NCBI RefSeq assembly: GCF_000020025.1
Contig: NC_010628.1
Location: 4,260,001-4,292,000 of the forward strand
Length of the DNA stretch: 32,000 nucleotides
Direction of reading: 5' to 3'
Source: Nostoc punctiforme PCC 73102
GTDB taxonomy: Bacteria > Cyanobacteriota > Cyanobacteriia > Cyanobacteriales > Nostocaceae
The position numbers and the translations under genes were made by a program. Each line of letters starts with the position of its first letter. The first letter of the stretch is position 1. Below, piece after piece: positions 8,549-31,413 of this stretch. The notes beneath the pieces are model-generated. The model was given only the letters and a program-made list of their open reading frames with translations, had not been told where the DNA came from and made no database searches.

Positions 8549-8622
8549 CGAACTACAGAGACGCAGAGAACGCGGAGAGAGAAGAAATAGAGATTTTCAC
8601 AAATGATTTAGGACTGCTATAT
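8549..8622 (-). repeat. MITE-like small dispersed repeat (copy A, inverted relative to copy C)
   Basis: The reverse complement reads tatagcagtcctaaatcatttgtgaaaatctctatttcttctctctccgcgttctctgcgtctctgtagttcgatt. It aligns with copy C except for a ~29-nt block present only in C. Confidence 0.75.
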
Positions 8623-8624
8623 TA

Positions 8625-11600
8625 CTATCGTTGATTTCTTTTTTCTCTTCGTCTTTGACCACGAGAAATACTTTGTTTCGCAGAAAGTATTTCATTCTGT
8701 TCAGGGCAGACAATATTAGTAAGGGAGTTTATGGTTGGTGCTTCGTAAATACTCTCTATAGGAATGTCAAGGTCTAATTTTTTGTTTAACAAAGAAATAG
8801 CTTGAAGGGCTGTTAGCGAATCACCTCCTAACTCAAAAAAATTGTCGTGGATGTTAACGTTGTCAAAACCAAAAAGTTCTTGCCAAATGTCAGCAATAGT
8901 TTTCTCAATCTTTTTACGGGAAGCGGCATAAGTATTTCCCAAAGCATTAGGTATTTGCTCAATCAGGTTTTCAAACAACTCATCAGCAGACTTTACATTT
9001 GAAGTAACCGAGAGCGATTCAGTAGCTAAGTTTAAAGATGAGCCAGTCAAAGTTTGATTGGCGCTCGTCTGTCCGCTATTTTTTGAAGTCTGCTCAGATG
9101 TAAAAAATCCCCCTGCTTGCATTTCAACTACGCTTTCTTTGACCGCAGAAATTACTTGTTCAACGTCTTTATCAGTGTGAGCTGTAGATAGATAAAGAGT
9201 GCGTCCTTCCCAGACATAAATCCCTTTTGCAAGCAAGTGATAGAAAAATAAATTACCAAGTTGAGTCTGGCAATTAAAACGGAAGAGAGAACCAAAATTA
9301 ACGACTCGAATTGGTACTTGCTTTTGTTCAAAGTAACTATTGAGAGTCTCGGCTAATTGGGTTGTCCGTTGATTTAACTCCTCCTGAAGTTTGGAACCAC
9401 TGTTCTTAATGTGATTGAGTGTAGCCCAGGCGACACCCATGATGAGAGGATGCTTGAAAAAAGTACCAGCGAAAAAAGTTGTTTTCACCTGGGGGTAAGA
9501 CTCATCTCCATAGTTCCACATACCTCCGTCTAATGCATCCATAAAAACAGCTTTGCCAGCCACTACCCCAATAGGGATACCAGCAGCAACAGCTTTACCA
9601 TAAGTTGTGATATCTGCTTGAATACCCCATAAAGCCTGAACGCCACCTGGGTGCATCCGAAAGCCAGTAACCACCTCATCGAAAATTAAAACAGTTCCAG
9701 TTTCTTGAGTTAATTGTCTGAGTTGAAATAGAAACTCTTTAGGCTGAAAATCTGGGCGACTGCTTTGTATCGGCTCAACTAAAATTGCTGCTAAGTTATG
9801 AGCATTGTCTTTAAGAATATTGAGAGATTCGGGAGTACCATACTCCAGCACCATCACATCCTCAGCTAAGGATGATGGAATACCTGAAGTCATCGGGACA
9901 GAACGTAGCGTTCCGTCGTTGGTTCTTACTCCTTTGACCAAAACTCCATCAGAACCACCGTGATAAGAACCAGCAAATAAAGCAATTTTTGAACGTCCTG
10001 TAACAGAACGTGCTATGCGTACAGCCGCCATCACTGCTTCTGTGCCATCGTTACAAAAAGCTGTCCGTTCCGCACCGGTTAACTCACAAATTAACTCAGC
10101 TAATTGACCTGCAAAACGCGATTGTGGGCCGTTTAGTATACCTTGCTTGCTTTGCTCTTGGATGGCTGCGATCGCAAAAGATGGCGAATGACCAAATAAA
10201 AGCGTACCAAACCCCATTGAAATGTCTACATATTCGTTGCCATCGACATCCCAGAGTCTAGCACCCTCTCCACGCTCTGCATGGATTGGATATATCATCT
10301 CCTTGATAAAGGGAAAGAACCCTGATACTGCCCTGCTATTGGCATGACAAGAACGATAAGCTTGGGTAAGCCTTTTAGATTCTTGGGTACGCTTGACAAA
10401 ATGTGCAATTAAAGAGTCTAGATGTCTCTGCTGGCGGGGACTCAACATCATCGATTCTTTCTCGATCTGTTGGGAAGCAGCTTTGGGTGTAGGATTAATT
10501 TTCCGGTCTTTGATTTGTTGCTCAGACTCTGCCTTAGTAAATGTAGACTGATTTCCACTAAACGCAGAGCCATTGGTTGAGGTTTGAGCAATTTGCCCAT
10601 CTTGATGAATAGCTCCCAATGAAGGCAAAACTTCTCTGGCTAAACTTCCCTGTGGTAATAAGTCTACCAGTTTAGACATAACCTGAAGATGCTGTGAAAT
10701 TATCTGTTCAATGGCTGTATTTGCTATAGGTTGGTTAACGATTTGCGTATCTGGAACTTTGATTGAGTTGGTTATGATATCTTCTGGTTGAGAAACAAGA
10801 ATTTCATTTTTGGGCGATAGATTGTCATCATTAGCTAAGATAGGTTCAATCCAGTATCTTTTTCGCTCAAAAGGATACGTTGGCAAGGGAATACGATGAC
10901 GTTCTTCATCGGCATAAAATTCTGACCAATCCACATTTATTCCCTCCAGCCAGAGTCTACCCAATGTATTTAGTAAAAACGCCACATCTGATTGTTGGTT
11001 CTGTGGATGTCTTAGTGAAGAAAGAATTACCTGCTGGGCCGCTTTTTGCTTGTTAGCTAAGGTACTTAATGTTCGCCCTGGGCCAACCTCTAAAAGAATT
11101 CGCTTTGGCTGTTGCAGTAATTCGGCGATCGCTTCGCTAAAACGTACTGTTTGGCGTAAATGCCTTGCCCAGTATTTCGGATCTGTTGCTTGTGCTGGGG
11201 TTATCCAAGTGCCGGTGACGTTAGATACAAAAGGAATTTTTGGAGAATTAAGGCTAATTTTGCTAACCTGTTCCTGGAATGGTAACAGAATCGAGTCCAT
11301 CATTGAGGAATGAAAAGCATGGGAAGTATGTAGACGATGACAGTCTACACCTTGGTCAATCAATCGTTTTTGTAAATCATCAACCGCTTCCTCCAATCCA
11401 GAAACTACGCACATATCTGGTGCATTGATTGCAGCCAAAGAGAGTTTTTTTCCTAGCATGGGTTGGATTTTTTTCTCTGGTAGTGAAACAGCCATCATTG
11501 TTCCCGATGGAAGCTGCTGCATCAGTTGTCCTCGGTTGGCTACGAGTATCAATGCTTCTTCTAAGGAGAACACACCAGCAATGCAGGCTGCGACATATTC

Positions 11601-16754: not shown

Positions 16755-16789
16755 ATTTATACCTCAGTGTTATAAGACTTTAGATTTTA

Positions 16790-16857
16790 TAGGACTTACG
16801 CAAAAACCCTCTTAAACTCTCATTCCTCAGTGACCTCAGTGTCCTCTGTGGTTCGTT
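16790..16857 (+). repeat. diverged member of the same repeat family (copy B1)
   Basis: tataggacttacgcaaaaaccctcttaaactctcattcctcagtgacctcagtgtcctctgtggttcgtt. It shares the tatag start and the ctcNgNgNcNtctgNNgttcgNtt end with copies A and C. Confidence 0.55.
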
Positions 16858-16934
16858 TTCCGTAATAATGCTTAATGGTGTATGAGGCAATACGGTTCAG
16901 TTAAGGCTAAAACTCTTTAACAAAGTCAATTTTT

Positions 16935-16990
16935 TAACGTAGACGCGGAGCGGCTTGCCGCAGGCTACCGCAGAGGAAACAGAGAGAAGA
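16935..16990 (-). repeat. repeat copy B2 (inverted; matches the GC-rich half of copy C)
   Basis: The reverse complement cttctctctgtttcctctgcggtagcctgcggcaagccgctccgcgtctacgtta aligns with copy C 31250-31312, with a few mismatches and one short indel. Confidence 0.75.
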
Positions 16991-16999
16991 AAAAAATGC

Positions 17000-18031
17000 T
17001 TAACCCAAGGGTATTGGTGTATGAGCTTCAGCCATTCCGACTAAAATTTTTCTGGGAGGGACAAATGGCTGACGGGCATGGATTGATAACATATTGTCCA
17101 GCATCAATACATGTCCTTTTTCCCAAGAAAAAGTGACCATTTCCTGTTGATAAGCTGCTCGTAGTTCAGCTAAGACTGATGGCTCAATTGCAGAACCATC
17201 CCCATAATATGTGTTAGTTGGTAGGTCTTCTTCTGGCAAATTTGTCAATAATGAATCGCGGATTGTTGATTCTAATGTGGAGACATGGAAAAAAGTTGCG
17301 TGATTGAACCAGACCATTTCACCTGTTTGAGGATGTTTGAGAACAACTGGCCCAACTTGACGAGTTCTTAAGCGATTATCTGCTTTCCATTCAACCTCAA
17401 TTCCATTGATTTTGCAGTACTCTTCTACCTTAGTTTTGTCTGTTGTTTGAAATACAGTTTGCCAAGGAAGACCAAATCCATCACCAAAGTTACGCATATA
17501 CATGACTTTCTTTTGAATGAAGCGATCGCGTATATCTGGATGAATCCGCTCAAACACTTTCCGACAACTACCAATTGGAGTTTCTCCTCCCTGCGCTGCT
17601 GGACTCATACAAAAAAAGAAGATTTTCAACGGAAAGGTAGGAGAGTAAGCGTGTTCATTGTGAGGAAAGATACTTTGCTCGGCAGGATAGTCTGTTGAAG
17701 TATAAATTCTCCCACCTACTTGAGTTCGTGGAGATGCCCGATAACGATACTCCATCGCCTCTCCACAAATCGCAGCGATGATTTGCTCAAATTCTTCTAT
17801 TGACTTGACTTTAAAATCCCGAAACAGTATTGCTCCATATTTTAATAATTCGGCTTTCAAAAATTCCCGATTATTCTTTGCCCAGTTTTGCAGATCCACT
17901 CCCTTCACATTGGGCTTAATCACCAAAGGAAAATTATTTCCTGGCTGGAGAAACTCAGTTTTTATTAAGTCTTCTGGAGATATATTGACAGCTTTACGCT
18001 TCACAGAACCTAGAGATTCAATTTTTGTCAT
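17000..18031 (-). CDS. SyrP/TauD-like Fe(II)/2-oxoglutarate dioxygenase (probable hydroxylase of a carrier-bound amino acid)
   Basis: 343 aa. GAILFRDF motif, HxE triad (FPHNEHAY, His124/Glu126), distal LSIHARQPF. The ATG at 18029-18031 overlaps the stop of the upstream C-domain gene by 14 nt. Confidence 0.85.
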   Translation of the reverse strand: MTKIESLGSVKRKAVNISPEDLIKTEFLQPGNNFPLVIKPNVKGVDLQNWAKNNREFLKAELLKYGAILFRDFKVKSIEEFEQIIAAICGEAMEYRYRASPRTQVGGRIYTSTDYPAEQSIFPHNEHAYSPTFPLKIFFFCMSPAAQGGETPIGSCRKVFERIHPDIRDRFIQKKVMYMRNFGDGFGLPWQTVFQTTDKTKVEEYCKINGIEVEWKADNRLRTRQVGPVVLKHPQTGEMVWFNHATFFHVSTLESTIRDSLLTNLPEEDLPTNTYYGDGSAIEPSVLAELRAAYQQEMVTFSWEKGHVLMLDNMLSIHARQPFVPPRKILVGMAEAHTPIPLG

Positions 18032-19949: not shown

Positions 19950-22900
19950 TTAATTTTGCGAAGTAATTATTGCATATACCTCATTTTCTGATAGTTGTTC
20001 AATATCTGCTAGGGCTTTAGCTAATTCCTCTGAGTTTGTTTGCTCGGCCATTTTTTGGACAATAACTTCAGCCAAATCAGCTACAGTCGGGCCGTTAAAG
20101 AAGCCTTTGTAAGAAAGTTCTATTTGGAAAACTTTGCACAGTTGAGAAACTAATTGAGTAGCAAATAAAGAGTCTCCTCCTAACTCAAAGAAGTTGTCAT
20201 GAATGCCTACTTTTTCAATACCTAAAATTTGTTGCCAAATGTCGGCAAGGTTTCGCTCGATTTCGTTATTAGGAGCAACATAAGTATTCGCCAAATTAGG
20301 GCGGGGGTGAGTTGATTTATATTGGCTCAACTGGGCTAATTTTTCCTCCAAGGACTCAACAGATTCCTTTGGCTTAATCAAGCTGAGAAAATCTTGTGTT
20401 GAGATAATAACTTGAGGAACTGTACTACTGCACAAAATACGTTTAAATGCCTCTATACCCTCAAAAGCGGTCATTCCTGCTATCAACTCTTTTCCTGTGA
20501 TTTGCTGATGCCGTGCTTCGACAGGAACCGCCATTCCTACGTTGTTCCATCTATCCCAGTTAATAGACTTAATGAATTTCCATGTTCCATATTTAGCAGC
20601 ACTGTATTGAGCAAATGAGTCAAGGAAGGCATTTGCAGCAGTATAATCTACCATTCCAGATGTGCCAGCAAAGGAACTTAGGGATGAACACAGTACAAAG
20701 AAATCTAGCTTGCTTTCTTGGAATAAAGTTTCAAGTACTCGTGTTCCTTGTACTTTTGGTGCTATGGCACTTGCTACAGTTTCTTTTGTGGCGAGTTGCA
20801 TCATTCCTCCGCCGTAAACTGCGGCTGCATGAATTACTCCATGAATCTCACCAAATCGCTGATTGGCTTTTTTAAGCACTGCTGACATCTGTTCAAGGTT
20901 GGTAACATCTGTGCTGACTACCATTACCTCTGCACCTAATGTTTTCATCGCCTGCAATTTTTGGATCTTTTGGCTGATGCTGTCGTGCCGATCGTGAGTA
21001 GATAACCACTCAGACCACTTATCTTGGTCAGGAAAGGCTGAACGACCTAGTAAGATCAGTTTTGCTTGTACGGTTTGGGCTAGATATTCTGCCAGCAGTA
21101 GACCAACACCTCCTAATCCGCCAGTGATTAAATATACACCTTGTTCTCGGAGGAGATTTCCCGCAACGGTTCCATGTAATTGAACAGGTTCAAAATCTTG
21201 TACCCAGCGATTACGTCCACGATAAGCAATAACTTGGTCAGATGTATAGGTTGTAAGTTCTGCTATTAGCGCTTTGATGAGTTGTTCTTCTCCACTTTCT
21301 GATTCAGGAATTACAACATCAATACTGCGACAGTTTATATTTGCATACTCTAATGGCATAACCTTGCAAGCTCCAAGAACTAATGCCTTTTCTGGACACA
21401 GCATTTCTGAACCTGTAACTTCCTGCAAATTGTTGGAGACAATGGCAATTTCTACAGCATCTGTTTGATTATTTTCTGCGTAGACGCGCAGCGCCTTGTC
21501 GTCAGACATCGCCTGTCCCAAAAACAATAAGCTCGACCAGCCTAAAGCTTCAATTGCTGAGTTGGTGTAACTATTTGATGTCACACTCCACAGATGAACA
21601 ATCCTTCTTGGGATTTTACCCAAAGTCCGAAGTCCTTTGAGTAAGGTGTTGTAGTCATCCTCTTTTTCAGGGTTAATCGTATATGTGTATTGAGAATATT
21701 CGCTACTCTGTTGAAATTGCTCTCCAACTTTAACGGTAATAACATCTTGGTTCTCAAGCACTAGTTGTTTTACCAACCTTTCACCCAAGCCAAACTCATC
21801 CACAAACACTAACCAGCATCCTGGTTGAGTTATCCCAAATCCGGGTTGAAAAGGCTGTGGCGGCATGGTGCGTTTCCAAGAAGGGATGTAAAACCAGTCA
21901 GCAATATCTGGCTTTTTACTTAATAAGTCTTGGTATTGCTCTTTAGGGGCTTTTTGCTTTGTGACTGTAAATGCTGTAGGTGCTGAGTCAGTTACCGATA
22001 CAGCAGTCTGAGCCACTAAAATTTGTTCGCCGAAAGCTTCAGTTTCAGAGACAGCTGCTACCTCAACAAACCCATGAGAACGTAGTGCATCCTGCCATTG
22101 CTCCTGTGACAAAAATGGATTACCACGGTTGCGTCCTTCATCCTCTAAGGGATTCATCAACAGACCATCAGTGATATCAAAGTTTAATTGTGGTTGAGTT
22201 ATCTCCCACAATAGCAGGAATCCTCCAGGAGCCAATAGCGATCGCACATGCTCTAGGGTTTTTGTTATGTTCTGGGTTACGTGCAACACATTAACAGCTA
22301 CCACCACATCAAAGCTGTGGCTGTTGAACCCTTGTGCAGTTGGCGGTTTTTCGATATCTAAAAAATGATATTCAACAAATGGATAAGCGCTAAACTGCTG
22401 TTTAGCTTGATTCAAAAACAAACCACCGACATCTGTAAAAGTGTAGTTAGTTCGTTCCGATGGCAACACAGGTAGCAATTCTGCCGTGGCAATACCCTGT
22501 CCACCACCAATTTCTAGAATTCTCAGGTTAACGTCAGATGGTAATGACTTTACCACCTGTTCCATACCTGTTCGTATAATCCCTTGTAAATGGGTATTCA
22601 GAGGCAATTCTGAATTTGCTTCTGGTTTTGGTTTGTGGTCTTTGACCGCAAAGAACAACTCTAAGGGTTCTTTTTCACCAATGAGTACATTTGGTAGATT
22701 CTCGCCACATTCCCGGACTATATTTAGCTCATGAAGTGTATCTACGTATCTGATTTTGACTTCTTCTACCAGAGTATTAATAGAGTCGATGGAACAGGGA
22801 ACAAGATTTGTAAATAAATCCTTTTCTTGTTTTAAGTGGCCTTGCTCTACTAGTACATCTAAAAAGCGATACAACAATTGTCGATAGCGAGGAATAATCT

Positions 22901-25829
22901 GAAATTGCTCACACAACTCTTTAGAAGAATACTGTTCATTAGAGTTGTTAAAAGCACCTAAACGCTGGAGAGCAAGGTTTATGTAAGCAGTACACAAACG
23001 ATCCAAATACTGTTTGTTCAGCAAATAAGTTGGCGCGTCTAGTGTAGCGATGCTAGCACGAGCCTTTACTCTACAAACTTCTACAAGAGATTTACCTAAC
23101 TCAGTTGCGGTTGCTTTTGGTTGAGATTGTCCTCCTAGATGTGGCTGTTTTTGTAGTTCAATCCAATAACGTTGGCGTTCAAATGGATAAGTCGGCAAAG
23201 GAATATGATGGCGTTGCTCGTTAGCATAAAAACCAGACCAGTCTACTTTGACACCAAAAAGCCAGAGTTGCCCCAAAGAGTTGAGTAAAAATGCGACATC
23301 TGACTGTTGCTCCTGTGGATGCCGGATTGAGGTTAATACCACCAGTTTTTCCTGGTGATGTTGCTTGGCAAAGGTACTTAAAGTCCTTCCAGGCCCAACC
23401 TCTAAAAAGATGCGCTCCTGTATTTTGAACAACTCAGTCATCCCTTCACTAAAGCGCACTGTCTGCCGTAAGTGCTTTACCCAATAGTTGGGGTCTGTTG
23501 CTTGGGCTACAGTAATCCAAGTGCCACTGACGTTAGACACAAACTCAATTGTTGGGGGATGAAGTTGGAGTTTTTGTAACTGCTGTGTAAATGGCTGGAG
23601 AATTGGCTCCATCATCTGAGAATGAAAGGCATGAGAAGTGTGCAACTTTCGACAAGCTACACCTTTGGCCTCTAGTTGTTGTTGCAATCTATTAATTGCT
23701 TCAGTTGCACCAGAAACCACGCAGTAAGAAGGCCCATTGCTTGCGGCTAAAGATAGTTGGCTATCTAGCAGAGGTTGTACTTCTTGTTCGGGAAGTTGGA
23801 CAGAGAGCATTTCACCAGTAGGAAGTTGCTGTATCAGTCGTCCTCGAATGGCAACTAGCATTAGGGCATCTTCCAGAGAGAAAACTCCTGCTAAAGTGGC
23901 AGCTACATACTCGCCGATACTGTGACCAATCATTGCCTCTGGCTGTACACCCCATGCCATCCACAATTGAGCTAGGGCGTATTCAATGACAAATAGTGCT
24001 GGCTGGGCAACAGATGTTTGTTGGAGTTCCAGCGTTGCTTTTGCGTTCTGTGCCTCGTCTGGATACAATACATGGCGTAGATCAAAACCTAGATGTGGTT
24101 GCAGCAGTTCACAGCAACTATCAACTGTAAGTGTAAAAATTGGCTCACTCCCGTAGAGTTCTCTAGCCATATTCACGTACTGTGTTCCTTGCCCGGAAAA
24201 CATAAACACCACAGGACGATGGCAAGGTTGCTGGTAGTGGGTGAAAACTCTTTGTGAATCTGAAGTAGACAGCACCTTTACCGCATCGTTCATATCTTGG
24301 CATACTACTATCCGGCGATGGTCGAAAGCTCGACGACCGATACCAAGGGTATGAGCCACATCAGCTAAGTTGAGATTGGGATGCTGTTTAAGGTGATTAG
24401 CCAGGTTCGCCGTAGCTGTTTCTAATGCAGATTCTGTTTTCGCTGAAAGAACCAACAGATGATATTTTCTCCCCTGCTCCCCTGCTCCCCTGCTCCCCTG
24501 CTCCTTTGCAGGCGCTTCTTCCAAAATCACATGGGCATTAGTCCCACCAATTCCAAAAGAACTAACTCCGGCACGGCGAGGAATGCCGTTTGTTGTCCAT
24601 TCGGTAAGCGTGGTATTAACGTAAAAAGGACTATTGGCAAAATCAATTTGCGGATTAGGTTGCTGAAAGTGCAGACTAGGTGGTATTTGTTGATGTTTCA
24701 GGGCTAGGACGGTTTTGATCAGACCTGTTACCCCAGCAGCAGCGTCTAAATGTCCAATGTTGGTTTTCACCGAACCAATGGCGCAAAAGCCTTTTTTCTC
24801 AGTGGTAGCTCGAAAAGCTTGTGTTAACGCCGCGATTTCAATGGGATCTCCTAGTGATGTTCCTGTACCATGAGCTTCAATGTAGGTAATCGTTTCAGGT
24901 TCAACCTCGGCAACAACTTGAGCAGTTCTAATCACCTTGGCTTGACCATCTATACGCGGTGCTGTGTAACTAACTTTGAAAGATCCATCGTTATTGACAG
25001 CCGAACCTTTAATGATGGCATGGATGGTATCTCCATCTGCTAGAGCATCGTCTAATCTCTTCAAAACCACAATGCCTACACCTTCACCACCAACAGTTCC
25101 CTGTGCTTGAGCATCAAAGGCGCGGCAATGTCCGTCGGGAGAACCAATTCCCCCTTCTTTGTAAAGATAGCCAGTTTTTCCAGAAGAATTTATGGAAACG
25201 CCACCTGCCAAAGCCATATCACATTCTCCATTGAGTAAGCTTTGAGCAGCTAAATGCACAGCCACCAATGAAGTTGAGCAGGCGGTTTGAACAGTGTAAC
25301 TTGGCCCCTCTAAATTAAGTTTGTAAGAAACGCGGGTAGTTAAATAGTCTTTGTCACCTGCGATCGCTAGTTGGTGATAATCTATAGATTTAATAATATC
25401 TTCGTTTAAATAAACATTGAGTAAGTAGCCACTGAAGCTAGCTCCGGCGTAAACTCCAATAGAACCTTGATAATTTTCTGAGTCATAGCCAGCATCTTCA
25501 AGGGCAATATATGCACATTCTAAAAATAGACGATGTTGTGGATCGGTAATGTCCGCTTCTCTAGGATTGAAGCCAAAGAATGAAGCATCAAAAAGTTCTA
25601 CATCTTCTAATACAGCTCGTGCTTTGACAAACTTTGGGTTCTTGAGTGTTGCTGCATCTATCCCAGAAGCTAATAGTTCTTCATCAGTAAAAACAGATAT
25701 TGACTCTACACCTCTTTGGAGATTTTGCCAAAACTCATCAGTATTTTTGGCTCCAGGAAATTTTCCTGCTATACCAATAATCGCTATTTCTGAACCTGTT
25801 TTAGGAGTAGATGCTATTGAATCATTCAT
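19950..25829 (-). CDS. type I PKS, KS-AT-cMT-KR-ACP
   Basis: 1959 aa. KS nt ~24513-25793 (TACSTSL, EAHGTGT, KTNIGHL). AT nt ~23316-24209 (GHSIGE, HAFH). C-methyltransferase nt ~22020-22712 (LRILEIGGGQGIATAELL). KR nt ~20460-21917 (TGGLGGVG, YTAAN). ACP nt ~20055-20282 (ELGGDS, Ser1887). No DH motif. Confidence 0.95.
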   Translation of the reverse strand: MNDSIASTPKTGSEIAIIGIAGKFPGAKNTDEFWQNLQRGVESISVFTDEELLASGIDAATLKNPKFVKARAVLEDVELFDASFFGFNPREADITDPQHRLFLECAYIALEDAGYDSENYQGSIGVYAGASFSGYLLNVYLNEDIIKSIDYHQLAIAGDKDYLTTRVSYKLNLEGPSYTVQTACSTSLVAVHLAAQSLLNGECDMALAGGVSINSSGKTGYLYKEGGIGSPDGHCRAFDAQAQGTVGGEGVGIVVLKRLDDALADGDTIHAIIKGSAVNNDGSFKVSYTAPRIDGQAKVIRTAQVVAEVEPETITYIEAHGTGTSLGDPIEIAALTQAFRATTEKKGFCAIGSVKTNIGHLDAAAGVTGLIKTVLALKHQQIPPSLHFQQPNPQIDFANSPFYVNTTLTEWTTNGIPRRAGVSSFGIGGTNAHVILEEAPAKEQGSRGAGEQGRKYHLLVLSAKTESALETATANLANHLKQHPNLNLADVAHTLGIGRRAFDHRRIVVCQDMNDAVKVLSTSDSQRVFTHYQQPCHRPVVFMFSGQGTQYVNMARELYGSEPIFTLTVDSCCELLQPHLGFDLRHVLYPDEAQNAKATLELQQTSVAQPALFVIEYALAQLWMAWGVQPEAMIGHSIGEYVAATLAGVFSLEDALMLVAIRGRLIQQLPTGEMLSVQLPEQEVQPLLDSQLSLAASNGPSYCVVSGATEAINRLQQQLEAKGVACRKLHTSHAFHSQMMEPILQPFTQQLQKLQLHPPTIEFVSNVSGTWITVAQATDPNYWVKHLRQTVRFSEGMTELFKIQERIFLEVGPGRTLSTFAKQHHQEKLVVLTSIRHPQEQQSDVAFLLNSLGQLWLFGVKVDWSGFYANEQRHHIPLPTYPFERQRYWIELQKQPHLGGQSQPKATATELGKSLVEVCRVKARASIATLDAPTYLLNKQYLDRLCTAYINLALQRLGAFNNSNEQYSSKELCEQFQIIPRYRQLLYRFLDVLVEQGHLKQEKDLFTNLVPCSIDSINTLVEEVKIRYVDTLHELNIVRECGENLPNVLIGEKEPLELFFAVKDHKPKPEANSELPLNTHLQGIIRTGMEQVVKSLPSDVNLRILEIGGGQGIATAELLPVLPSERTNYTFTDVGGLFLNQAKQQFSAYPFVEYHFLDIEKPPTAQGFNSHSFDVVVAVNVLHVTQNITKTLEHVRSLLAPGGFLLLWEITQPQLNFDITDGLLMNPLEDEGRNRGNPFLSQEQWQDALRSHGFVEVAAVSETEAFGEQILVAQTAVSVTDSAPTAFTVTKQKAPKEQYQDLLSKKPDIADWFYIPSWKRTMPPQPFQPGFGITQPGCWLVFVDEFGLGERLVKQLVLENQDVITVKVGEQFQQSSEYSQYTYTINPEKEDDYNTLLKGLRTLGKIPRRIVHLWSVTSNSYTNSAIEALGWSSLLFLGQAMSDDKALRVYAENNQTDAVEIAIVSNNLQEVTGSEMLCPEKALVLGACKVMPLEYANINCRSIDVVIPESESGEEQLIKALIAELTTYTSDQVIAYRGRNRWVQDFEPVQLHGTVAGNLLREQGVYLITGGLGGVGLLLAEYLAQTVQAKLILLGRSAFPDQDKWSEWLSTHDRHDSISQKIQKLQAMKTLGAEVMVVSTDVTNLEQMSAVLKKANQRFGEIHGVIHAAAVYGGGMMQLATKETVASAIAPKVQGTRVLETLFQESKLDFFVLCSSLSSFAGTSGMVDYTAANAFLDSFAQYSAAKYGTWKFIKSINWDRWNNVGMAVPVEARHQQITGKELIAGMTAFEGIEAFKRILCSSTVPQVIISTQDFLSLIKPKESVESLEEKLAQLSQYKSTHPRPNLANTYVAPNNEIERNLADIWQQILGIEKVGIHDNFFELGGDSLFATQLVSQLCKVFQIELSYKGFFNGPTVADLAEVIVQKMAEQTNSEELAKALADIEQLSENEVYAIITSQN
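21477..21503 (-). repeat. 27-nt in-frame copy of the repeat core inside the KS-AT-cMT-KR-ACP coding sequence
   Basis: The sense strand gacgacaaggcgctgcgcgtctacgca encodes DDKALRVYA. Its core caaggcgctgcgcgtctacg matches intergenic 31290-31309 (caaggcgctctgcgtctacg) in 18 of 20 positions. The paralogous KR region at ~5380-5410 lacks these 9 codons. Confidence 0.7.
22020..22712 (-). other. C-methyltransferase domain
   Basis: SAM motif LEIGGGQGIATAELL, followed by FTDVGG and FDVVVAVNVLH. It lies between AT and KR. Confidence 0.8.
24469..24504. repeat. tandem octanucleotide repeat (cccctgct, about 4.5 units) inside a coding sequence
   Basis: ct-cccctgct-cccctgct-cccctgct-cccctgct-cc on the plus strand. 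It is translated as EQGSRGAGEQGR in the KS-AT linker. A decayed version occupies the same linker position of the paralog at 12153-12185. Confidence 0.9.
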
Positions 25830-25895: not shown

Positions 25896-28800
25896 TTATT
25901 CCTTAACTCCTAGACTTTTAGTAATTGACTTTAGTTTTTGCAGACGTTTTTGCTGTTGAGCTTTTCCATCTTTAATCTTCTCAATTTTTACATCAGTTTT
26001 CTGAAGAGATAATGTGTGATTTTTGATTGTGGTAAAGCATTCTGCTAAAGAGCTTATGGTTGGATATCTAAACATATCGATCATCGATAAATCTGTTTGA
26101 AATATTTCACGTAACTTGCTATGAACCTTAACCATAAGTAATGAATGACCACCCAGTTCAAAGAAGTTGTCGTGAATGCCTATCTTCTCGATATTGAGAG
26201 CCTTTTGCCAAATAGTAGCGATAGTTTGTTCCATCTCAGTTTGGGGCATGACATAAGCATCTGACAAATTTGGGCGGATAGTTTCTGGTGCAGGTAGCGA
26301 TCGCCGATCCAACTTGCCGTTGGGCGTTAGCGGCAGAGCAGGGAGGAAGATAAAGGCAGAAGGCACCATATATTCTGGTAGCTTTTCTTTCAGGAATCGC
26401 TGTAAATCACCGATGGTAACAGCCTGTTTATCATCCAGGACTACATAGCCTACTAAACGCTTCTCACCATGACTTTCTTCAACAGCCTGGACTATTACTT
26501 CTCGGACTGCCTGATGTTTTCTCAGTGCCGTCTCAATCTCTCCTAACTCAATGCGGAAACCTCGAATTTTAACTTGGTGGTCAATGCGTCCTAAGTACTC
26601 AAGTTCGCCATTGGGCAAGTAACGGGCCAGATCGCCAGATTTGTATAAATAAGCATCAGTTACTTCGCTAAAGGGGTTGACAATGAACCGTTCAGCAGTT
26701 AATTCTGGGCGATTGAGATAACCACGAGTTACACCCGCACCACCAATGTAAAGTTCACCAGCAACCCCAATTGGAACTGGTTGCCGTTGTGAATCTAATA
26801 AGTATATTTGCAAGTCAGGAATACGATGCCCAATTAGGCTACCATTTCTTTGATTTAAATCCGCTATATTTATGGGGCGATAGGTTACGTGTACAGTCGT
26901 TTCTGTAATACCGTACATATTGACTAGTTGTGAGCCATCGCCGTGGCGCTCAAACCAAGGCTGCAAGCTATCAAGTTCCAGGGTCTCACCCCCAAAAATC
27001 ACAAGACGCAGAGCCAGCGTTCCAGTTTTACCTGCCGCTTCCTCCTCTGCATTCATTAGTTGCCGGAAGGCCGATGGAGTTTGATTGAGTACCGTTACCT
27101 GCTGAGTGCATAACAAGTTGTAGAAAGCCTCTGGCGACCTGCTAATCCAGTAAGGAACAACTACCAGCCGTCCCCCATAGAGAAGAGATCCCCAAATTTC
27201 CCAAACTGAGAAGTCAAATCCATAAGAGTGAAAATTTGTCCACACATCGCGATCGCTAAAGTTAAACCATGACTGTGTGGCGGTAAAGAGCCGAATAACG
27301 TTCTGATGATTGACTAAAACGCCTTTGGGTTTACCAGTAGAGCCGGAGGTGTAAATTACATAAGCTAAATTATTTGTAGTTACCTCCCTAACCGGATTAT
27401 CTACCCTTTCTTGACACCAAGCCTCACTGTTTTGGTTTAAGCAAACCACCTGCGCCTGATGCTCAGGTAAACCTTCGAGAAATTTATCCTCGGTTAACAA
27501 TACCGAAACCTGGGCATCTGACAGCATGAAGGCTAGACGCTCCTTGGGATAGGTAGGATCTAGAGGGACGTAAGCCCCACCAGCTTTGAGAATTCCCAAG
27601 ATACTCACAACCATATCTATTGAGCGATCCATAAAAATTCCCACCAGTACTTCTGGGCCTACGCCGAGCGAATTGCTACGCGACAGCTTCGCTGAACGCA
27701 AATAATGCGCCAGCTGATTAGCTCGCTGGTTCAGTTCCCGGTATGTTAACTGTTGGTCTTCAAAGATTACGGCAATGGCATCGGGCGATCGCTCCACTTG
27801 AACTTCAAATAACTCATGGATACAATACTCCCCAGAATAGTCAGTTTGAGTATTATTCCATTCCACCAACAACTGTTGTTGTTCTGTTTTCGTCAACACA
27901 GGCAATTGTGCAAGGGGCTGCTCTGGATTAGCAACAATACCTTCTAGTAAAGTTACGTAATGTTTGCTCCAACGCTGAATTGTCTGGCAGTCAAATAGAT
28001 CGGTATTATATTCCAGTTCTATTAGTAGTTCATTATCTGTCTGAAAAATATTTAAATTAAGATCAAACTTAGTAGCACTGGTAGAATTTTTAGCAACCTC
28101 AAATTCTTGCTTTAACGACTTTGACTCAAATTGAGCTTTGTCCAGATTAAACCCGGTGGTAAAGAGAGGGGTACGGCTAGGATCTCGCGGTAACTTTAAA
28201 TTTTCAATTAGTTTAATAAATGGATAAATTTGATACTCGTAAGCATCTAGCAATACCTGCTGGATTGCGCTCAAATACTCTGTGAATCCTGGGTTGCCAA
28301 TAACTTGGCTACGTATAGGCAATAGATTAACACAGTGACCAACAAGAGATTCTCCTGCGATCGCAGATTGTCCGGCTGAAGCAATACCAACAACGATATC
28401 TTGTTGATTCGTCAATCTTTGCAATAAAGTTATAAATGCTGTTAAAAGAATCGTAAATAAAGTATAACCACGTTGTCCGCTTAAATTTTTTAGAGCGTTA
28501 TACAATGTTGGATCAAGGATGAGATTTTCTCGCGCACCAGTGTAAGAAAAGATTGGTGGTCGAGGACGGTCAGTTGGCAATTCCAACACAGGCACTGAAC
28601 TCGAAAATTGACCTAACCAATAAGCTTCAGCTTTTGCCATCTCTGGACTCTGCTGCCTTTCTACTTGCCACAGAGCATACTCACTCCATTTCATCGGTTG
28701 CAGAAGTTGACTAGCAATACCTTGGCACTGTGCTGAATAAATTGCTGCTAGTTCTTGTAACAAAATACCAATCGACCAACCATCAGCAACAATGTGATGA

Positions 28801-31205
28801 TTCGTCAGAACCACAAGATGATAATTTTCCTCCAGCTTAACTATGTGGCAGCCTAGTAATGGCCCTTTTTCCAGATGGAAAATTTGTTGAGCTTCTCGTG
28901 CTAACAATTCCGATAGCTGTGCTTCTCGTTGACTTTTATCTAAAGTTGAAAAGTCGCTCACAGGAATGTCTATAGTTAAAGTGGAATGAATCAATTGCTC
29001 ATCCCCCTCTGGGCTAAAAGTAGTTCGCAGCGCTTCGTGACGATTGATAATTTCCTGAACCGCTTTACGTACTGCCAATAAATTGCAAGTTCCCCGTAGG
29101 TGGATAGTTCTCGATTCGTTATAGGCGCGGGAAACCTCATCTCCCATTTGTGCTAAAAACCACAATTCTTTTTGTGCTGCCGTCAGAGGAATTTTGAGCG
29201 TTGTTAAAATTGGGGCAGATGGTAATAATTCCCCTTGTTGCATTTCTACTACGCTTTCTTTAACTGCTCGAATTATATGTTCAATATCTGCATCAGTATG
29301 AGCCGTAGAAAGATAAAAGGTGCGTCCTTCCCAGACATAAACGCCTTTTTCTAGCAGATGGTAGAAAAACAACTGATTAAACTTGAGAGGAGATGAGCCT
29401 ATAAAACGAAACAACGAACCAAAATGAACTACTTGAATAGGAACTTGTCTTTTTTCGAAGTAACTATTAATAGTTTGGGCTAATTTCGCTGTTTTTTGAG
29501 ATAACTCTTGCTGTAACTTCGGGCCACTATTCTTAATATGGTTGAGTGCAGCCCAAGCCGCAGCCATTACCAAAGGATGTTTGAAAAAAGTACCCGCAAA
29601 CATGGTGGTTTCTGCTTGAGGATAAGATTCATCTCCATAGTTCCACATCCCACCATCAAGCGTATCCATCAAAGCTGCTTTGCCAGCTATCACCCCAATT
29701 GGCATCCCAGCAGCAACAGTTTTCCCATAAGTAGTCAAATCTGCTTGAATATCCCATAATCCTTGAATTCCACCTGGGTGCATCCGAAAGCCGGTAATCA
29801 CTTCATCAAAAATTAATACGGTTCCTGTTGCTTGAGTTAGTTGTCTGAGCTGGAGCAAAAACTCTTTGGGTTGCAAATCTGGCCGACTACTTTGTATCGG
29901 CTCTACCAATACTGCTGCCAGTTCGTGAGCATGAGTTTTGAGAATCTCTAAGGATTCAGGTTGGCCATAGTCGAGTACAATAACATCATCAGCAATGTAA
30001 GATGGAATACCTATAGCTCTAGGGATAGAACGCCGCGTTCCTTCGCTAGTTGTGACTCCTCGCACCAATATCCCATCATAGATACCGTGATAAGAGCCAG
30101 TAAATAAAGCAATCTTGGAGCGTCCTGTAGTAGCGCGTGCTAGGCGTATTGCTCCCATCACGGCTTCTGAACCATCGTTACAAAAAGCTGCCCGTTCTGC
30201 GCCTGTTAGTTGACAAATTAACTCCGCAACCTGACCGGCAAGACGCGATTGTGGGCCGTGCAGTATACCTTGGTTTATTTGTTCTTGAATCGCATCAATG
30301 ACAAACGAAGGCGAATGACCAAATAAAAGCGCACCAAACCCCATAGAAATGTCTACGTATTCGTTGCCATCAACATCCCAAAGCGTGGCTCCCTCTCCAC
30401 GCTGTCCGTGGATGGGATATAACATCTCTTTAATTGAGGGCAGGAACCCTGTTACCGCCCTGCTATTAGCATGGTAAGAACGGTAAGTTTGCGAGAGTCG
30501 CTTAGATTCTGAAGTACGCTTAACAAAACGTGCAATTAAATAATCTAAATGTTTTTGTTGATGAGGAGTTAACAGAGTCTTTGATTCTGAGTCAAGCTGT
30601 TGGATATTTGCCGGAATTTGAGGCTCAATTATTTGGTTTATGAGTTGTTGATTAAACTTAGCTTGAATCGATGATGGACTTTCTTGAAAACCAGATTTAT
30701 CCTGAACAGGAGCAGATGGTATTGCTGCTTGTAAAGGTAATCTTTTCTTAGATGAACCTGCTTTTTGCAAAATATCTAGCTGTTTAGACATTAGCTGAAG
30801 CTGCTGTTCTATTACCTGTTCCAGTATTGTACCTGTTACAGATTTTTCATTTTCTTGCTCAAACTCTTGTGTATCTGAAGCCTTAACAGCTAGCCTTGAT
30901 TCCTTGATATCTTCTGGAGGTATTTCTTGCACTATGTGCGTTACTAAGGCATGAATTGTTGATAAATCTTCAAGTAATAAACGAAAAGGAATATTAATAC
31001 TTAACTGTTTTTGAATGGCACGGTTTATTTGCAGCAATATCAGAGAGTCAACACCCATTTCTAGAAAACGAGTATGAATATCTATTGCAGATGACTTGAC
31101 TCCCAATGACTCACTAACAATGTCCTTGAGGCTTAATACTAATTTCTGATATTGCAAATCTTTCTTCATAATATTTTTCAAAAACTTATTTATTACTGAA
31201 TGCAT
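25896..31205 (-). CDS. hybrid PKS/NRPS: ACP-AMT-C-A(Thr)-PCP
   Basis: 1769 aa. ACP nt ~30921-31163 (EMGVDS, Ser54). PLP aminotransferase nt ~29241-30575 (TTYGKTVAAG, Lys495). C nt ~27906-29192 (NHHIVADGWSIG). A nt ~26301-27833 (YTSGSTGKPKG, hand-extracted code DFWNIGMVHK). PCP nt ~26031-26243 (ELGGHS, Ser1688). Confidence 0.95.
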   Translation of the reverse strand: MHSVINKFLKNIMKKDLQYQKLVLSLKDIVSESLGVKSSAIDIHTRFLEMGVDSLILLQINRAIQKQLSINIPFRLLLEDLSTIHALVTHIVQEIPPEDIKESRLAVKASDTQEFEQENEKSVTGTILEQVIEQQLQLMSKQLDILQKAGSSKKRLPLQAAIPSAPVQDKSGFQESPSSIQAKFNQQLINQIIEPQIPANIQQLDSESKTLLTPHQQKHLDYLIARFVKRTSESKRLSQTYRSYHANSRAVTGFLPSIKEMLYPIHGQRGEGATLWDVDGNEYVDISMGFGALLFGHSPSFVIDAIQEQINQGILHGPQSRLAGQVAELICQLTGAERAAFCNDGSEAVMGAIRLARATTGRSKIALFTGSYHGIYDGILVRGVTTSEGTRRSIPRAIGIPSYIADDVIVLDYGQPESLEILKTHAHELAAVLVEPIQSSRPDLQPKEFLLQLRQLTQATGTVLIFDEVITGFRMHPGGIQGLWDIQADLTTYGKTVAAGMPIGVIAGKAALMDTLDGGMWNYGDESYPQAETTMFAGTFFKHPLVMAAAWAALNHIKNSGPKLQQELSQKTAKLAQTINSYFEKRQVPIQVVHFGSLFRFIGSSPLKFNQLFFYHLLEKGVYVWEGRTFYLSTAHTDADIEHIIRAVKESVVEMQQGELLPSAPILTTLKIPLTAAQKELWFLAQMGDEVSRAYNESRTIHLRGTCNLLAVRKAVQEIINRHEALRTTFSPEGDEQLIHSTLTIDIPVSDFSTLDKSQREAQLSELLAREAQQIFHLEKGPLLGCHIVKLEENYHLVVLTNHHIVADGWSIGILLQELAAIYSAQCQGIASQLLQPMKWSEYALWQVERQQSPEMAKAEAYWLGQFSSSVPVLELPTDRPRPPIFSYTGARENLILDPTLYNALKNLSGQRGYTLFTILLTAFITLLQRLTNQQDIVVGIASAGQSAIAGESLVGHCVNLLPIRSQVIGNPGFTEYLSAIQQVLLDAYEYQIYPFIKLIENLKLPRDPSRTPLFTTGFNLDKAQFESKSLKQEFEVAKNSTSATKFDLNLNIFQTDNELLIELEYNTDLFDCQTIQRWSKHYVTLLEGIVANPEQPLAQLPVLTKTEQQQLLVEWNNTQTDYSGEYCIHELFEVQVERSPDAIAVIFEDQQLTYRELNQRANQLAHYLRSAKLSRSNSLGVGPEVLVGIFMDRSIDMVVSILGILKAGGAYVPLDPTYPKERLAFMLSDAQVSVLLTEDKFLEGLPEHQAQVVCLNQNSEAWCQERVDNPVREVTTNNLAYVIYTSGSTGKPKGVLVNHQNVIRLFTATQSWFNFSDRDVWTNFHSYGFDFSVWEIWGSLLYGGRLVVVPYWISRSPEAFYNLLCTQQVTVLNQTPSAFRQLMNAEEEAAGKTGTLALRLVIFGGETLELDSLQPWFERHGDGSQLVNMYGITETTVHVTYRPINIADLNQRNGSLIGHRIPDLQIYLLDSQRQPVPIGVAGELYIGGAGVTRGYLNRPELTAERFIVNPFSEVTDAYLYKSGDLARYLPNGELEYLGRIDHQVKIRGFRIELGEIETALRKHQAVREVIVQAVEESHGEKRLVGYVVLDDKQAVTIGDLQRFLKEKLPEYMVPSAFIFLPALPLTPNGKLDRRSLPAPETIRPNLSDAYVMPQTEMEQTIATIWQKALNIEKIGIHDNFFELGGHSLLMVKVHSKLREIFQTDLSMIDMFRYPTISSLAECFTTIKNHTLSLQKTDVKIEKIKDGKAQQQKRLQKLKSITKSLGVKE
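27669..27692 (-). repeat. 24-nt in-frame, hairpin-capable insertion in the Thr A domain
   Basis: The sense strand gcgaagctgtcgcgtagcaattcg encodes AKLSRSNS, interrupting the usual HYLxxLGVxxE spacing (compare HYLQRLGVEKE in the other A domain). The flanks give an agcgaa/ttcgct 6-bp stem. GC-rich relative to its surroundings. Confidence 0.45.
29241..30575 (-). other. PLP-dependent aminotransferase (AMT) domain within the ACP-AMT-C-A-PCP protein
   Basis: The region from LWDVDGNEYVDISMGFG to YGKTVAAGMPIG to VWEGRTFYLSTAHT. Class-III aminotransferase fold with the PLP lysine retained. Confidence 0.85.
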
Positions 31206-31210
31206 TTATA

Positions 31211-31312
31211 TATAGCAGTTCTAAATCATTCGTGAAACCTCTCGTTATTCTTCTCTCTGTGTACTCTGCGTCTCTGCGGTAGCCTGCGGCAAGGCGCTCT
31301 GCGTCTACGTTA
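31211..31312 (+). repeat. MITE-like small dispersed repeat, longest copy (copy C)
   Basis: tatagcagttctaaatcattcgtgaaacctctcgttattcttctctctgtgtactctgcgtctctgcggtagcctgcggcaaggcgctctgcgtctacgtta. It is related to 8549-8622 (inverted), 16790-16857 (direct) and 16935-16990 (inverted). Confidence 0.75.
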
Positions 31313-31344
31313 AAAAATAATTTCTATAAATAAGATAATATTGC

Positions 31345-31360
31345 TATAGCAGTCCTAAAT
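31345..31360 (+). repeat. 16-nt direct repeat of the copy-C terminus
   Basis: tatagcagtcctaaat matches tatagcagttctaaat at 31211-31226 in 15 of 16 positions. The two bracket the GC-rich core. Confidence 0.6.
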
Positions 31361-31413
31361 AAATTTATAAAATATTTGCTTTTTTCTTGATGCTATTAGC
31401 ATATATATAATTG

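What the first reader, a model, noticed from the sequence alone, without database searches (positions are those of the whole stretch)
21477..21503. The repeat core is inserted in-frame inside the PKS coding sequence (adds DDKALRVYA to the KR structural region)
The sense strand reads gacgacaaggcgctgcgcgtctacgca. Its 20-nt core matches the intergenic copies at 31290-31309 and (inverted) 16939-16958 in 18 of 20 positions each. Alignment with the paralogous protein (QALGKQNWTDKFKITVVSNN versus QAMSDDKALRVYAENNQTDAVEIAIVSNN) shows exactly 9 extra codons here. The block is also conspicuously GC/CpG-rich in an AT-rich gene. This is direct evidence that a tiny mobile or recombinogenic element entered a megasynthase ORF without breaking the frame.
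Basis: seen in the sequence. Interest (0 to 1): 0.65.

Follow-up and report, generated by a model that had tools for sequence, protein, structure and literature searches.

The report
27-base repeat inserted in PKS gene
A 27-base copy of a tiny dispersed repeat typical of Nostoc genomes sits in frame inside a polyketide synthase gene, exactly splitting the 8-base cyanobacterial HIP1 palindrome that related strains still carry intact; it is a clean example of an already described kind of mini-element, not a new kind.

Summary
The PKS gene (19950-25829, minus strand) carries 27 extra bases, 9 codons, that none of 120 homologous KR regions has.

Four orthologous loci, 73 to 94% identical in DNA, have an intact HIP1 octamer GCGATCGC at exactly this site. 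The window, and two strains 98-99% identical to it, read GCGAT|GTCTGACGACAAGGCGCTGCGCGTCTA|CGC. Nothing is duplicated and nothing is lost at the target. The peptide change is Ile to MSDDKALRVY.

The same element, about 50 copies in about 0.95 Mb of Nostocales DNA, splits HIP1 at unrelated sites. About 40% of copies lie inside long ORFs, in five of six frames, and several of those ORFs are confirmed real genes.

This matches the HIP1-splitting small dispersed repeat SDR5 of Elhai et al. 2008. The window is probably from Nostoc punctiforme, the genome in which SDRs were defined. The element here is 27 nt, whereas SDR5 is cited as 21 nt.

The two intergenic look-alikes in the window belong to a different subfamily. 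One of them rides inside a MITE, and neither is the likely donor.

Moderate-low interest.

The parts
21481..21507 (-). The inserted 27-nt element. The sense strand reads GTCTGACGACAAGGCGCTGCGCGTCTA. This is a small dispersed repeat of the HIP1-splitting type.
   Evidence: It is absent from orthologous loci L141, L142, L140, L139 and L001 and present and identical in L136 and L138. The same element occurs at 45 unrelated sites in other Nostocales loci, or 51 by the looser left-arm criterion.
21508..21512 (-). Left half of the split HIP1 octamer (sense GCGAT).
   Evidence: Orthologues read CAGGCGAT|CGCAGAA with an intact GCGATCGC. Of 46 copies, 39 are flanked by a perfect split HIP1.
21478..21480 (-). 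Right half of the split HIP1 octamer (sense CGC).
   Evidence: As for the left half. Position 35 of the 35-mer, the only right-flank base not fixed by the scan pattern, is C in 50 of 51 copies.
19950..25829 (-). Host gene: a type I PKS module of 1959 aa with KS-AT-cMT-KR-ACP architecture. The insert falls in the N-terminal (structural) part of the KR region, at residues 1441-1450.
   Evidence: Translation and Pfam domains. The PF21394 match stops at residue 1443, where the insert lies. In the AlphaFold model the residue block covering most of the insert has pLDDT about 60, while neighbouring blocks are 86-97.
16929..16975 (-). Intergenic relative of the other subfamily ('class A': ...GGTAGCCTGCGG-CAAGCCGCTCCGCGTCTACG-TTAAAAAA). 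It lies inside a MITE (16889-17014).
   Evidence: I1; 38 class-A copies in other genomes with the same constant flanks; the MITE is absent from L138 and L141.
31272..31318 (+). Second intergenic class-A copy, upstream of the NRPS gene 25896-31205. It is 96% identical to the first and in inverted orientation.
   Evidence: I1, I7.

Best explanation
The 27 nt at 21481-21507 are one copy of a HIP1-splitting small dispersed repeat (SDR5 type, 27-nt variant) that is spread through Nostocales genomes.

Shown: the ancestral gene had a HIP1 octamer here (GCG ATC GCA, coding Ala-Ile-Ala). The element was inserted exactly between GCGAT and CGC, which is between nucleotides 3 and 4 of HIP1 on the other strand. 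There is no target duplication and no loss of target bases. The insertion happened after the split from the Nostoc sp. ChiQUE01b lineage (94% DNA identity) and before the divergence of three N. punctiforme-like strains (98-99%).

The gene stays open because the element is 27 nt long and has no stop codon in this frame. One Ile becomes MSDDKALRVY at the end of a helix in the structural half of the KR region. This is most likely a tolerated, neutral passenger.

Inferred: the copy came from another HIP1-type copy, not from the neighbouring intergenic copies. It was placed by a HIP1-directed, orientation-specific cut-and-join process that leaves no duplication. That is the signature of site-specific or single-strand (HUH-type) insertion, or of retrohoming-like insertion, not of a DDE transposase. 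The process probably recognises the element as a folded single strand: two mini-hairpins with conserved stems and hypervariable loops, closed by the HIP1 halves. The enzyme is unknown.
For: (1) None of 120 homologues has the 9 residues.
(2) Empty sites with intact GCGATCGC occur at the homologous position in L141 (93.7% identical over 3 kb), L142 (85.6%), L140 (84.6%, found by scanning for the predicted empty-site sequence) and L139 (73%). Filled, identical sites occur in L136 (99.2%) and L138 (97.8%).
(3) The genome scan returned 120 loci. Among them 45 further copies read GCGAT|GTCTRRCGACAAGCCGCTNNGCGTCTA|CGC with unrelated flanks, and with the window copy 39 of 46 have a perfect split HIP1.
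(4) 18 of those 45 copies lie in ORFs of at least 200 codons, in five of six frames. Five tested ORFs are real genes by Pfam: a disulphide oxidoreductase, an acyl-CoA dehydrogenase, a GAF histidine kinase, a glucodextranase and an AAA ATPase. In annotated plasmids the 35-mer lies under CDSs for an ArsR regulator, a CHAT protein, DUF2254, an iron uptake porin and an NRPS.
(6) Structure: only positions 10-11 and 24-25 of the 35-mer vary. Both pairs fall in the loops of the two predicted hairpins. The middle pair of stem 1 covaries: T/A 62 and C/G 11 against 3 other combinations.
(7) The left arm of the coding copy (GTCTGACGA) is the HIP1-type arm, not the GCCTGCGG arm of the window's intergenic copies.
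Against: No enzyme or intermediate is identified, so the mechanism is inference from the junctions only. The insertion is not recent enough to be caught in the act, because three strains share it unchanged. Hairpin energies for such short sequences are not better than shuffled controls (z from -0.2 to -1.3). The stems are invariant within the subfamily, and part of that invariance was fixed by my scan pattern. The covariation is therefore between subfamilies and may rest on few events. The right-flank CG of the other copies was part of the scan pattern, so only one right-flank base is an independent test. SDR5 is cited as 21 nt and this element is 27 nt. The original paper (PMC2527708) could not be read, so the family number is not verified.
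Confidence: 0.9

Rival explanations
1. The 9 codons are ancestral KR sequence that was lost in other lineages, and the resemblance to the repeats is chance.
For: Loops in this part of the KR vary in length among homologues (alignment).
Against: None of 120 homologues has it. Five orthologous loci lack exactly these 27 nt, and four of them have an intact HIP1 across the junction. About 50 copies of the same 35-mer exist at unrelated loci. No match within 3 mismatches was expected by chance in the window.
Confidence: 0.01
2. The patch was copied locally from one of the two intergenic copies in the same gene cluster (16938-16957 or 31290-31309), by ectopic gene conversion or template switching during replication or repair.
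Against: The coding copy carries the HIP1-type left arm GTCTGACGA. The neighbours carry GCCTGCGG and constant non-HIP1 flanks (GGTA...CGTTAAAAAA). The copy at 16938 arrived inside a MITE that is absent from strain UO1 (L138), yet UO1 already has the PKS insert. An identical 27-mer, including the rare GG variant, occurs in HIP1 context at an unrelated locus of another Nostoc (L074).
Confidence: 0.03
3. The family is the same, but the mechanism is not transposition. A break at HIP1, for example made by a HIP1-specific nuclease, was repaired using another occupied HIP1 site as template. This would be homology-independent or micro-homology gene conversion between HIP1 sites. The element would then spread passively by repair and have no machinery of its own.
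For: HIP1 is hyper-abundant, with 18 sites in this window and 665 in 0.95 Mb of loci. The junctions are exact and symmetric with respect to HIP1. Elhai 2015 notes that directed cutting at HIP1 could partly explain SDR5 insertion (PMC4390886).
Against: The HIP1 halves offer only 5 and 3 nt of homology, far below what RecA-type conversion needs. The element always has the same orientation relative to the asymmetric split. Conserved stems with variable loops suggest recognition of the element itself.
Confidence: 0.2
4. The insert was retained because it is adaptive for the synthase, for example as a new KR surface loop that changes docking or stereocontrol.
For: It is conserved without change in three strains that differ at 1-2% of sites.
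Against: 27 nt unchanged at 1-2% divergence is what neutrality predicts. The same peptide (AMSDDKPLRVYA) appears in unrelated proteins. It lies in the non-catalytic structural part, and the model block covering most of it has low confidence. The closest empty orthologue keeps the same cluster architecture.
Confidence: 0.05

Closest known systems
SDR5, a small dispersed repeat inserted in HIP1 (Elhai, Kato, Cousins, Lindblad, Costa 2008, Genome Res 18:1484; cited in PMC4390886, PMC5861425 and bioRxiv 10.64898/2026.06.24.733823)
   Same: It is a tiny dispersed repeat of heterocystous cyanobacteria. It is inserted precisely between nucleotides 3 and 4 of GCGATCGC. It has a predicted hairpin structure with compensatory changes. 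The probable source organism is the one in which SDRs were defined.
   Different: SDR5 is cited as 21 nt, whereas this element is 27 nt. A 21-nt HIP1-splitting relative (GTCTACGACGGGCTACGCCTA) with similar ends co-occurs in the same genomes. The window copy is therefore either a longer SDR5 subfamily or a sister family. The original consensus could not be checked.
HIP1 (highly iterated palindrome 1, GCGATCGC)
   Same: HIP1 is the target site. It is conserved at this codon position (Ala-Ile-Ala) in four orthologues.
   Different: HIP1 itself spreads by substitution and does not create indels (bioRxiv 2026). Here it serves as the landing site for an insertion.
MITEs (miniature inverted-repeat transposable elements)
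   Same: Both are small, non-autonomous and dispersed. A true MITE (16889-17014, with an 11-bp target duplication) in this window carries a related repeat copy.
   Different: The coding insert has no terminal inverted repeats and no target duplication, and it is 4-10 times shorter than MITEs.
REP/REPIN elements mobilised by RAYT (IS200/IS605-like HUH) transposases (Bertels & Rainey 2011, PMC3116915; Di Nocera et al. 2013, PMC3733652)
   Same: Both are 20-40 nt, hairpin-forming and inserted without target duplication. The junction on the plus strand forms G|TAG. N. punctiforme encodes RAYTs, and that paper suggests SDRs might be explained the same way.
   Different: REPs are extragenic and usually occur as inverted doublets. 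This element is single, often lies inside genes, and is tied to a palindromic 8-mer target. No RAYT link was tested here.
Rickettsia palindromic elements (in-frame selfish repeats inside protein-coding genes; Ogata et al. 2000, from my own knowledge)
   Same: These are selfish repeats that survive inside ORFs because their length and reading frames keep the host protein intact. The inserted peptide sits at the protein surface.
   Different: RPEs are about 100-150 bp, are unrelated in sequence and have no HIP1-like target.

Membership tests
SDR5-type HIP1-splitting small dispersed repeat | A very short (21-27 nt) sequence repeated at many unrelated loci of Nostocaceae genomes | tested here: met
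   45-51 copies depending on criterion, in 120 loci (about 0.95 Mb), each with unrelated flanks. 24 plasmid records hold the full 35-mer.
SDR5-type HIP1-splitting small dispersed repeat | Inserted precisely between the 3rd and 4th nucleotides of HIP1 (GCG^ATCGC) | tested here: met
   The plus strand reads GCG|27 nt|ATCGC. Four orthologues have intact GCGATCGC at the site. 39 of 46 copies have a perfect split HIP1.
SDR5-type HIP1-splitting small dispersed repeat | Matches the published SDR5 consensus and length (cited as 21 nt) | tested here: inconclusive
   The element is 27 nt. A 21-nt HIP1-splitting relative with similar ends exists in the same loci. The original paper is not held, so the consensus was not compared.
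SDR5-type HIP1-splitting small dispersed repeat | Predicted secondary structure supported by compensatory changes | tested here: met
   Two mini-hairpins are predicted. Variation is confined to the loop positions. Stem 1 covaries, T/A against C/G. Folding energies alone are not significant.
SDR5-type HIP1-splitting small dispersed repeat | Confined to heterocystous cyanobacteria and close kin | tested here: met
   HIP1-type copies occur in Nostoc, Tolypothrix, Rhizonema, Halotia, Iningainema, Trichormus, Fischerella, Calothrix and Aulosira. One occurs in Chroococcidiopsis, and a few in MAGs labelled otherwise. Hits in GC-rich non-cyanobacteria lack the left arm.
MITE | Terminal inverted repeats and a target-site duplication | tested here: not met
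   Nothing is duplicated at the junctions and the 27-mer has no inverted termini. By contrast, the 126-nt element at 16889-17014 has an 11-bp duplication, TGGTGTATGAG.
REP/REPIN (RAYT-mobilised) | Extragenic palindromic units, typically inverted doublets, next to a RAYT gene | tested here: not met
   About 40% of copies are inside ORFs. The copies occur singly. No RAYT gene was looked for, so the RAYT association is not tested.
Type I PKS ketoreductase region (host domain) | KR catalytic domain preceded by the structural beta-ketoacyl-synthase-like N-terminal subdomain | tested here: met
   PF08659 matches residues 1564-1761 and PF21394 matches 1354-1443. The AlphaFold model has pLDDT 88.6 and pTM 0.90.

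The most novel reading that the evidence does not exclude
The 27-nt HIP1-splitting element may be a currently active mobile unit, distinct from the 21-nt SDR5. It may be recognised as a two-hairpin single strand by a dedicated HIP1-directed insertion enzyme that has not been found. All the HIP1-splitting elements seen here are 18, 21 or 27 nt long. These multiple-of-three lengths may reflect selection for survival inside genes. Filled and empty pairs at 94% identity, such as this PKS site, would then give a direct handle on two open questions: what HIP1 is for, and how sub-30-nt elements move.
Probability: 0.2. Interest if true: 0.6.

Novelty: new member of a known kind. Interest (0 to 1): 0.3.

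Why it matters
For repeat biology, this is an unusually clean before-and-after pair. The same codon position holds an intact HIP1 in four orthologues and a split HIP1 with a 27-nt insert in three strains. That documents exact, duplication-free, HIP1-targeted insertion of a sub-30-nt element into an essential-looking coding region.

For natural-product genomics, it shows that 9-residue indels in megasynthase domains of Nostoc can be selfish-repeat scars and need not be functional adaptations. It also shows that the structural KR subdomain tolerates such a scar.

It does not reveal a new kind of element. Elements that split HIP1 in this way were described in 2008, probably in this very genome. 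The open question, which machinery moves them, is not answered here.

Tried and rejected
- The original SDR paper (PMC2527708) is not held. Four literature searches found only secondary citations, and one search call failed on term length.
- I expected the two hypervariable dinucleotides (positions 10-11 and 24-25) to pair with each other. Inspection of the copies shows no such covariation. They are loop positions instead.
- Folding energies of the 35-mer, the 29-mer and the 54-nt intergenic form are not better than shuffled controls, so structure rests on the variation pattern only.
- The contig look-up for P0002 found nothing on record.
- The closest homologue found first (L001, about 80% identical) has a decayed HIP1 (GCTATTAC) and could not define the borders by itself. 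Closer relatives were reached through the neighbouring TauD and condensation proteins.
- The local donor idea, that the neighbouring intergenic copies supplied the insert, was rejected on the left-arm sequence and on MITE presence and absence.
The source genome itself was not among the rows returned.
Full report
**1. The observation**

The gene at 19950-25829 (minus strand) encodes a 1959-aa type I PKS module with KS, AT, C-methyltransferase, KR and ACP domains. Its sense strand at 21477-21503 reads GACGACAAGGCGCTGCGCGTCTACGCA.

The 20-mer core has two 2-mismatch relatives in the window. One is at 31290-31309 (+) and one at 16938-16957 (minus). None was expected in dinucleotide-preserving shuffles. 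These two intergenic copies are parts of a 47-nt pair that is 96% identical and extends to about 75 nt (I1 and I7).

**2. It is a true insertion**

A protein search with the cMT-KR-ACP part returned 1043 homologues. I aligned the region around the site for the best 120. None has the 9 residues. The closest (P0001 and P0008, about 80% identical) read QAIT|ENNQTDA where the window reads QAMS-DDKALRVYA-ENNQTDA. DNA of the P0001 contig (L001) lacks exactly 27 nt.

**3. What the element really is**

Most were Nostocales. A minority were GC-rich bacteria with obvious chance matches in coding DNA.

The cyanobacterial copies fall into two classes.
- **Class A** has constant flanks (...GCGGTAGCCTGCGG-core-TTAAAAAA...). 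It is the form of the two intergenic copies in the window.
- **Class B** reads GCGAT-GTCTRRCGA-core-C and has unrelated flanks at every locus. The PKS copy is class B: GCGAT|GTCTGACGACAAGGCGCTGCGCGTCTA|CGC.

Removing the 27 nt restores GCGATCGC, the cyanobacterial HIP1 octamer. Of 46 class-B copies, counting the window's, 39 are flanked by a perfect split HIP1 and the rest by one-mismatch versions.

**4. The decisive test**

I predicted the empty site (…CAG GCG ATC GCA GAA AAT AAT…) and scanned metagenome contigs for it with degenerate third positions. One contig matched (L140, 84.6% identical over 3 kb).

I reached closer relatives through the neighbouring genes' protein clusters. The orthologous sites then sort as follows.

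| Locus | Source | DNA identity over 3 kb | State of the site |
|---|---|---|---|
| L136 | 8.33-Mb JGI contig | 99.2% | filled, insert identical |
| L138 | N. punctiforme UO1 | 97.8% | filled, insert identical |
| L141 | Nostoc sp. ChiQUE01b | 93.7% | empty, intact GCGATCGC |
| L142 | Logan contig (SRR15568737) | 85.6% | empty, intact GCGATCGC |
| L140 | metagenome contig | 84.6% | empty, intact GCGATCGC |
| L139 | P0004 contig | 73% | empty, intact GCGATCGC |
| L001 | P0001 contig | 85.6% | empty, decayed HIP1 (GCTATTAC) |

HIP1 is therefore ancestral at this codon position (Ala-Ile-Ala). The 27 nt entered between GCGAT and CGC with no duplication and no loss. This happened after the split from the ChiQUE01b lineage and before the three N. 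punctiforme-like strains diverged.

In window coordinates the insert is 21481-21507. The HIP1 halves are at 21508-21512 and 21478-21480. The ATC codon is split, so Ile becomes MSDDKALRVY.

**5. Comparison with the literature**

[quoted passage not shown] On the window's plus strand the junction is GCG|…|ATCGC, which is exactly that.
- Xu et al. (2018, PMC5861425) summarise that SDR5 uses HIP1 as its insertion site in the Nostocaceae.
- A 2026 preprint gives the length of SDR5 as 21 nt.

In the fetched loci I also found a 21-nt HIP1-splitting element (GCGAT|GTCTACGACGGGCTACGCCTA|CGC, 11 copies) and an 18-nt one (3 copies). The 21-nt element shares its ends with the 27-mer. The window's element is thus an SDR5-type element of the longer, 27-nt form. 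I could not read the 2008 paper, so I cannot say whether it was numbered SDR5 or otherwise.

The window's own proteins lie on a contig of 8,234,322 bp and recur in dozens of public sequencing runs at 100% identity. From memory, that length is the N. punctiforme PCC 73102 chromosome, the genome in which SDRs were defined. This identification is an inference.

**6. Coding versus intergenic sites, and insertion phase**

Of 45 class-B copies outside the window, 18 lie in stop-free frames of at least 200 codons.

| Reading | Copies | Peptide |
|---|---|---|
| sense frame 0 | 5 (6 with the window) | AMSDDKPLRVYA |
| sense frame 2 | 6 | RCLTTSRxAST |
| sense frame 1 | 1 | only a variant without the TGA or TAA that the usual GA and AA loop variants create in this frame |
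| antisense frames | 6 | VDAxRLVxRHR or RRREAACRQTS |
| antisense frame starting GCG TAG | 0 | always has a stop |

Pfam confirms that five of these ORFs are ordinary genes. In annotated plasmid records the 35-mer lies under CDSs that include another NRPS.

In-frame survival inside genes is therefore a general property of the family. The PKS case is one of many.

**7. Structure of the element**

Single-strand folding gives two mini-hairpins (TGTC-loop-GACA and AGCCGC-loop-GCGTCT) closed by the HIP1 halves. The energies are not better than shuffled controls for such short sequences.

Among 51 copies, the only variable positions are 10-11 and 24-25. These are exactly the two loops. Many stem positions were fixed by my scan pattern, so their invariance is not independent evidence.

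The middle pair of stem 1 covaries between subfamilies. After GCGAT the combinations are T/A 62, C/G 11 and other 3. In front of the core they are T/A 49 (class B), C/G 42 (class A) and 1 wobble. This agrees with the published claim, recalled from the 2008 abstract, of a shared structure supported by compensatory changes.

**8. Effect on the protein**

An AlphaFold2 model of residues 1325-1860, built with 86 homologues, has pLDDT 88.6 and pTM 0.90. The insert corresponds to model residues 117-126.

It is predicted as a low-confidence extension of helix 101-119 before strand 135-142. Block 121-130, which covers most of the insert, has pLDDT 60, the lowest value inside the KR fold (only the disordered N-terminal residues and the C-terminal linker score lower). 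The Pfam match to the structural subdomain stops at the insert.

The catalytic KR half (residues 1564-1761) is untouched. A tolerated surface scar is the likeliest reading. Solvent exposure could not be computed.

**9. The intergenic relatives**

The copy at 16938-16957 lies inside a 126-nt element (16889-17014) flanked by an 11-bp duplication, TGGTGTATGAG. That element is absent from UO1 and ChiQUE01b. This copy therefore travelled as a passenger of a MITE, by another mechanism, and after the PKS insertion, since UO1 already has the PKS insert.

Its left arm also differs from that of the coding copy. These copies are family relatives, not donors.

**10. Mechanism**

The following is shown: the target is HIP1, the join is exact, there is no duplication, and the orientation is fixed relative to the asymmetric split.

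The following is inferred. The element is copied from another class-B copy by a site-specific or single-strand (HUH-like) process, or by a retrohoming-like process, that recognises the folded element. A DDE transposase is unlikely because nothing is duplicated at the target. The main mechanistic rival is passive spread by repair of HIP1-directed breaks. Nothing here identifies the enzyme.

**11. Verdict**

It is a new, well-documented member of a known kind, of moderate-low interest.

Noticed in passing
window 16889-17014 (target duplications at 16877-16887 and 17015-17025): A 126-nt MITE-like element with imperfect inverted ends (CAATACGGTTCAGTTAAGG...) and an 11-bp target duplication, TGGTGTATGAG. 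It is present in the window and L136 but absent from N. punctiforme UO1 (L138) and ChiQUE01b (L141). It landed in the last codons of the TauD-like gene (17000-18031) and replaces the C-terminal KAFK with IPLG at unchanged length. Logan assemblies of the same strain break at this repeat (contigs end at window 16940).
   Followed up: partly
window about 16770-16876: A second insertion of about 100 nt next to the MITE, also absent from L138 and L141. It contains the motif TAGGACTTACGCAAAAACCCTCT, and the core GCGTAAGTCCT recurs in several of the fetched Nostoc loci.
   Followed up: no
window 24469-24504: A perfect tandem array of 4.5 copies of an 8-nt unit (sense GGAGCAGG) lies inside the KS-AT linker of the PKS gene and encodes ...EQGSRGAGEQGR.... 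The 99%-identical strain L136 has three more units (+24 nt, +8 aa). This is an in-frame copy-number polymorphism in steps of three units.
   Followed up: partly
L010, L025, L033, L055, L079, L084, L092 and others; L009, L026, L114: Other HIP1-splitting mini-elements occur in the same genomes: a 21-nt one (GTCTACGACGGGCTACGCCTA, 11 copies, probably canonical SDR5) and an 18-nt one (GCCTACGGCGGTAAACTA, 3 copies). Lengths of 18, 21 and 27 are all multiples of three.
   Followed up: partly
L002 (Gloeocapsa sp. PCC 7428 plasmid, NC_019746.1, about 186,700-186,770): A class-A copy carries a further 24 nt (ACTCTGCGAGAAGGCTTCGCCAAT) exactly at its variable loop dinucleotide. This is a nested insertion of one mini-repeat in another. 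It lies within the annotated start region of an NRPS gene.
   Followed up: no
window 8595-8622, 31210-31237, 31338-31384: Another short repeat (ATATAGCAGTYCTAAATCATTYGTGAAA) lies just upstream of two megasynthase genes (3100-8529 and 25896-31205), in opposite orientations. It may be a regulatory or dispersed-repeat motif.
   Followed up: no
L004 (Aphanizomenonaceae plasmid CP150887.1, 52,884-52,929): An annotated DEAD/DEAH helicase CDS reads through a stretch made of several different dispersed repeats, including a diverged class-A copy. The peptide there looks like translated repeat DNA.
   Followed up: no
L074 (Nostoc sp. P12588, NZ_JBALCY010000009.1), locus 7966-7985: This is the only other copy with the window's rare core variant (CAAGGCGCTGCGCG). 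Its 27-mer is identical to the PKS insert but sits at an unrelated site with flank CGT instead of CGC. It may point to a shared source subfamily.
   Followed up: no
window 1-32000: The cluster encodes two aminotransferase-containing megasynthases (8625-13505 and 25896-31205), several TauD-type dioxygenases and a terminal KS-AT-KR-ACP-TE module. The window's own proteins sit on a contig of 8,234,322 bp, consistent with the N. punctiforme PCC 73102 chromosome. The window holds 18 intact HIP1 sites.
   Followed up: partly
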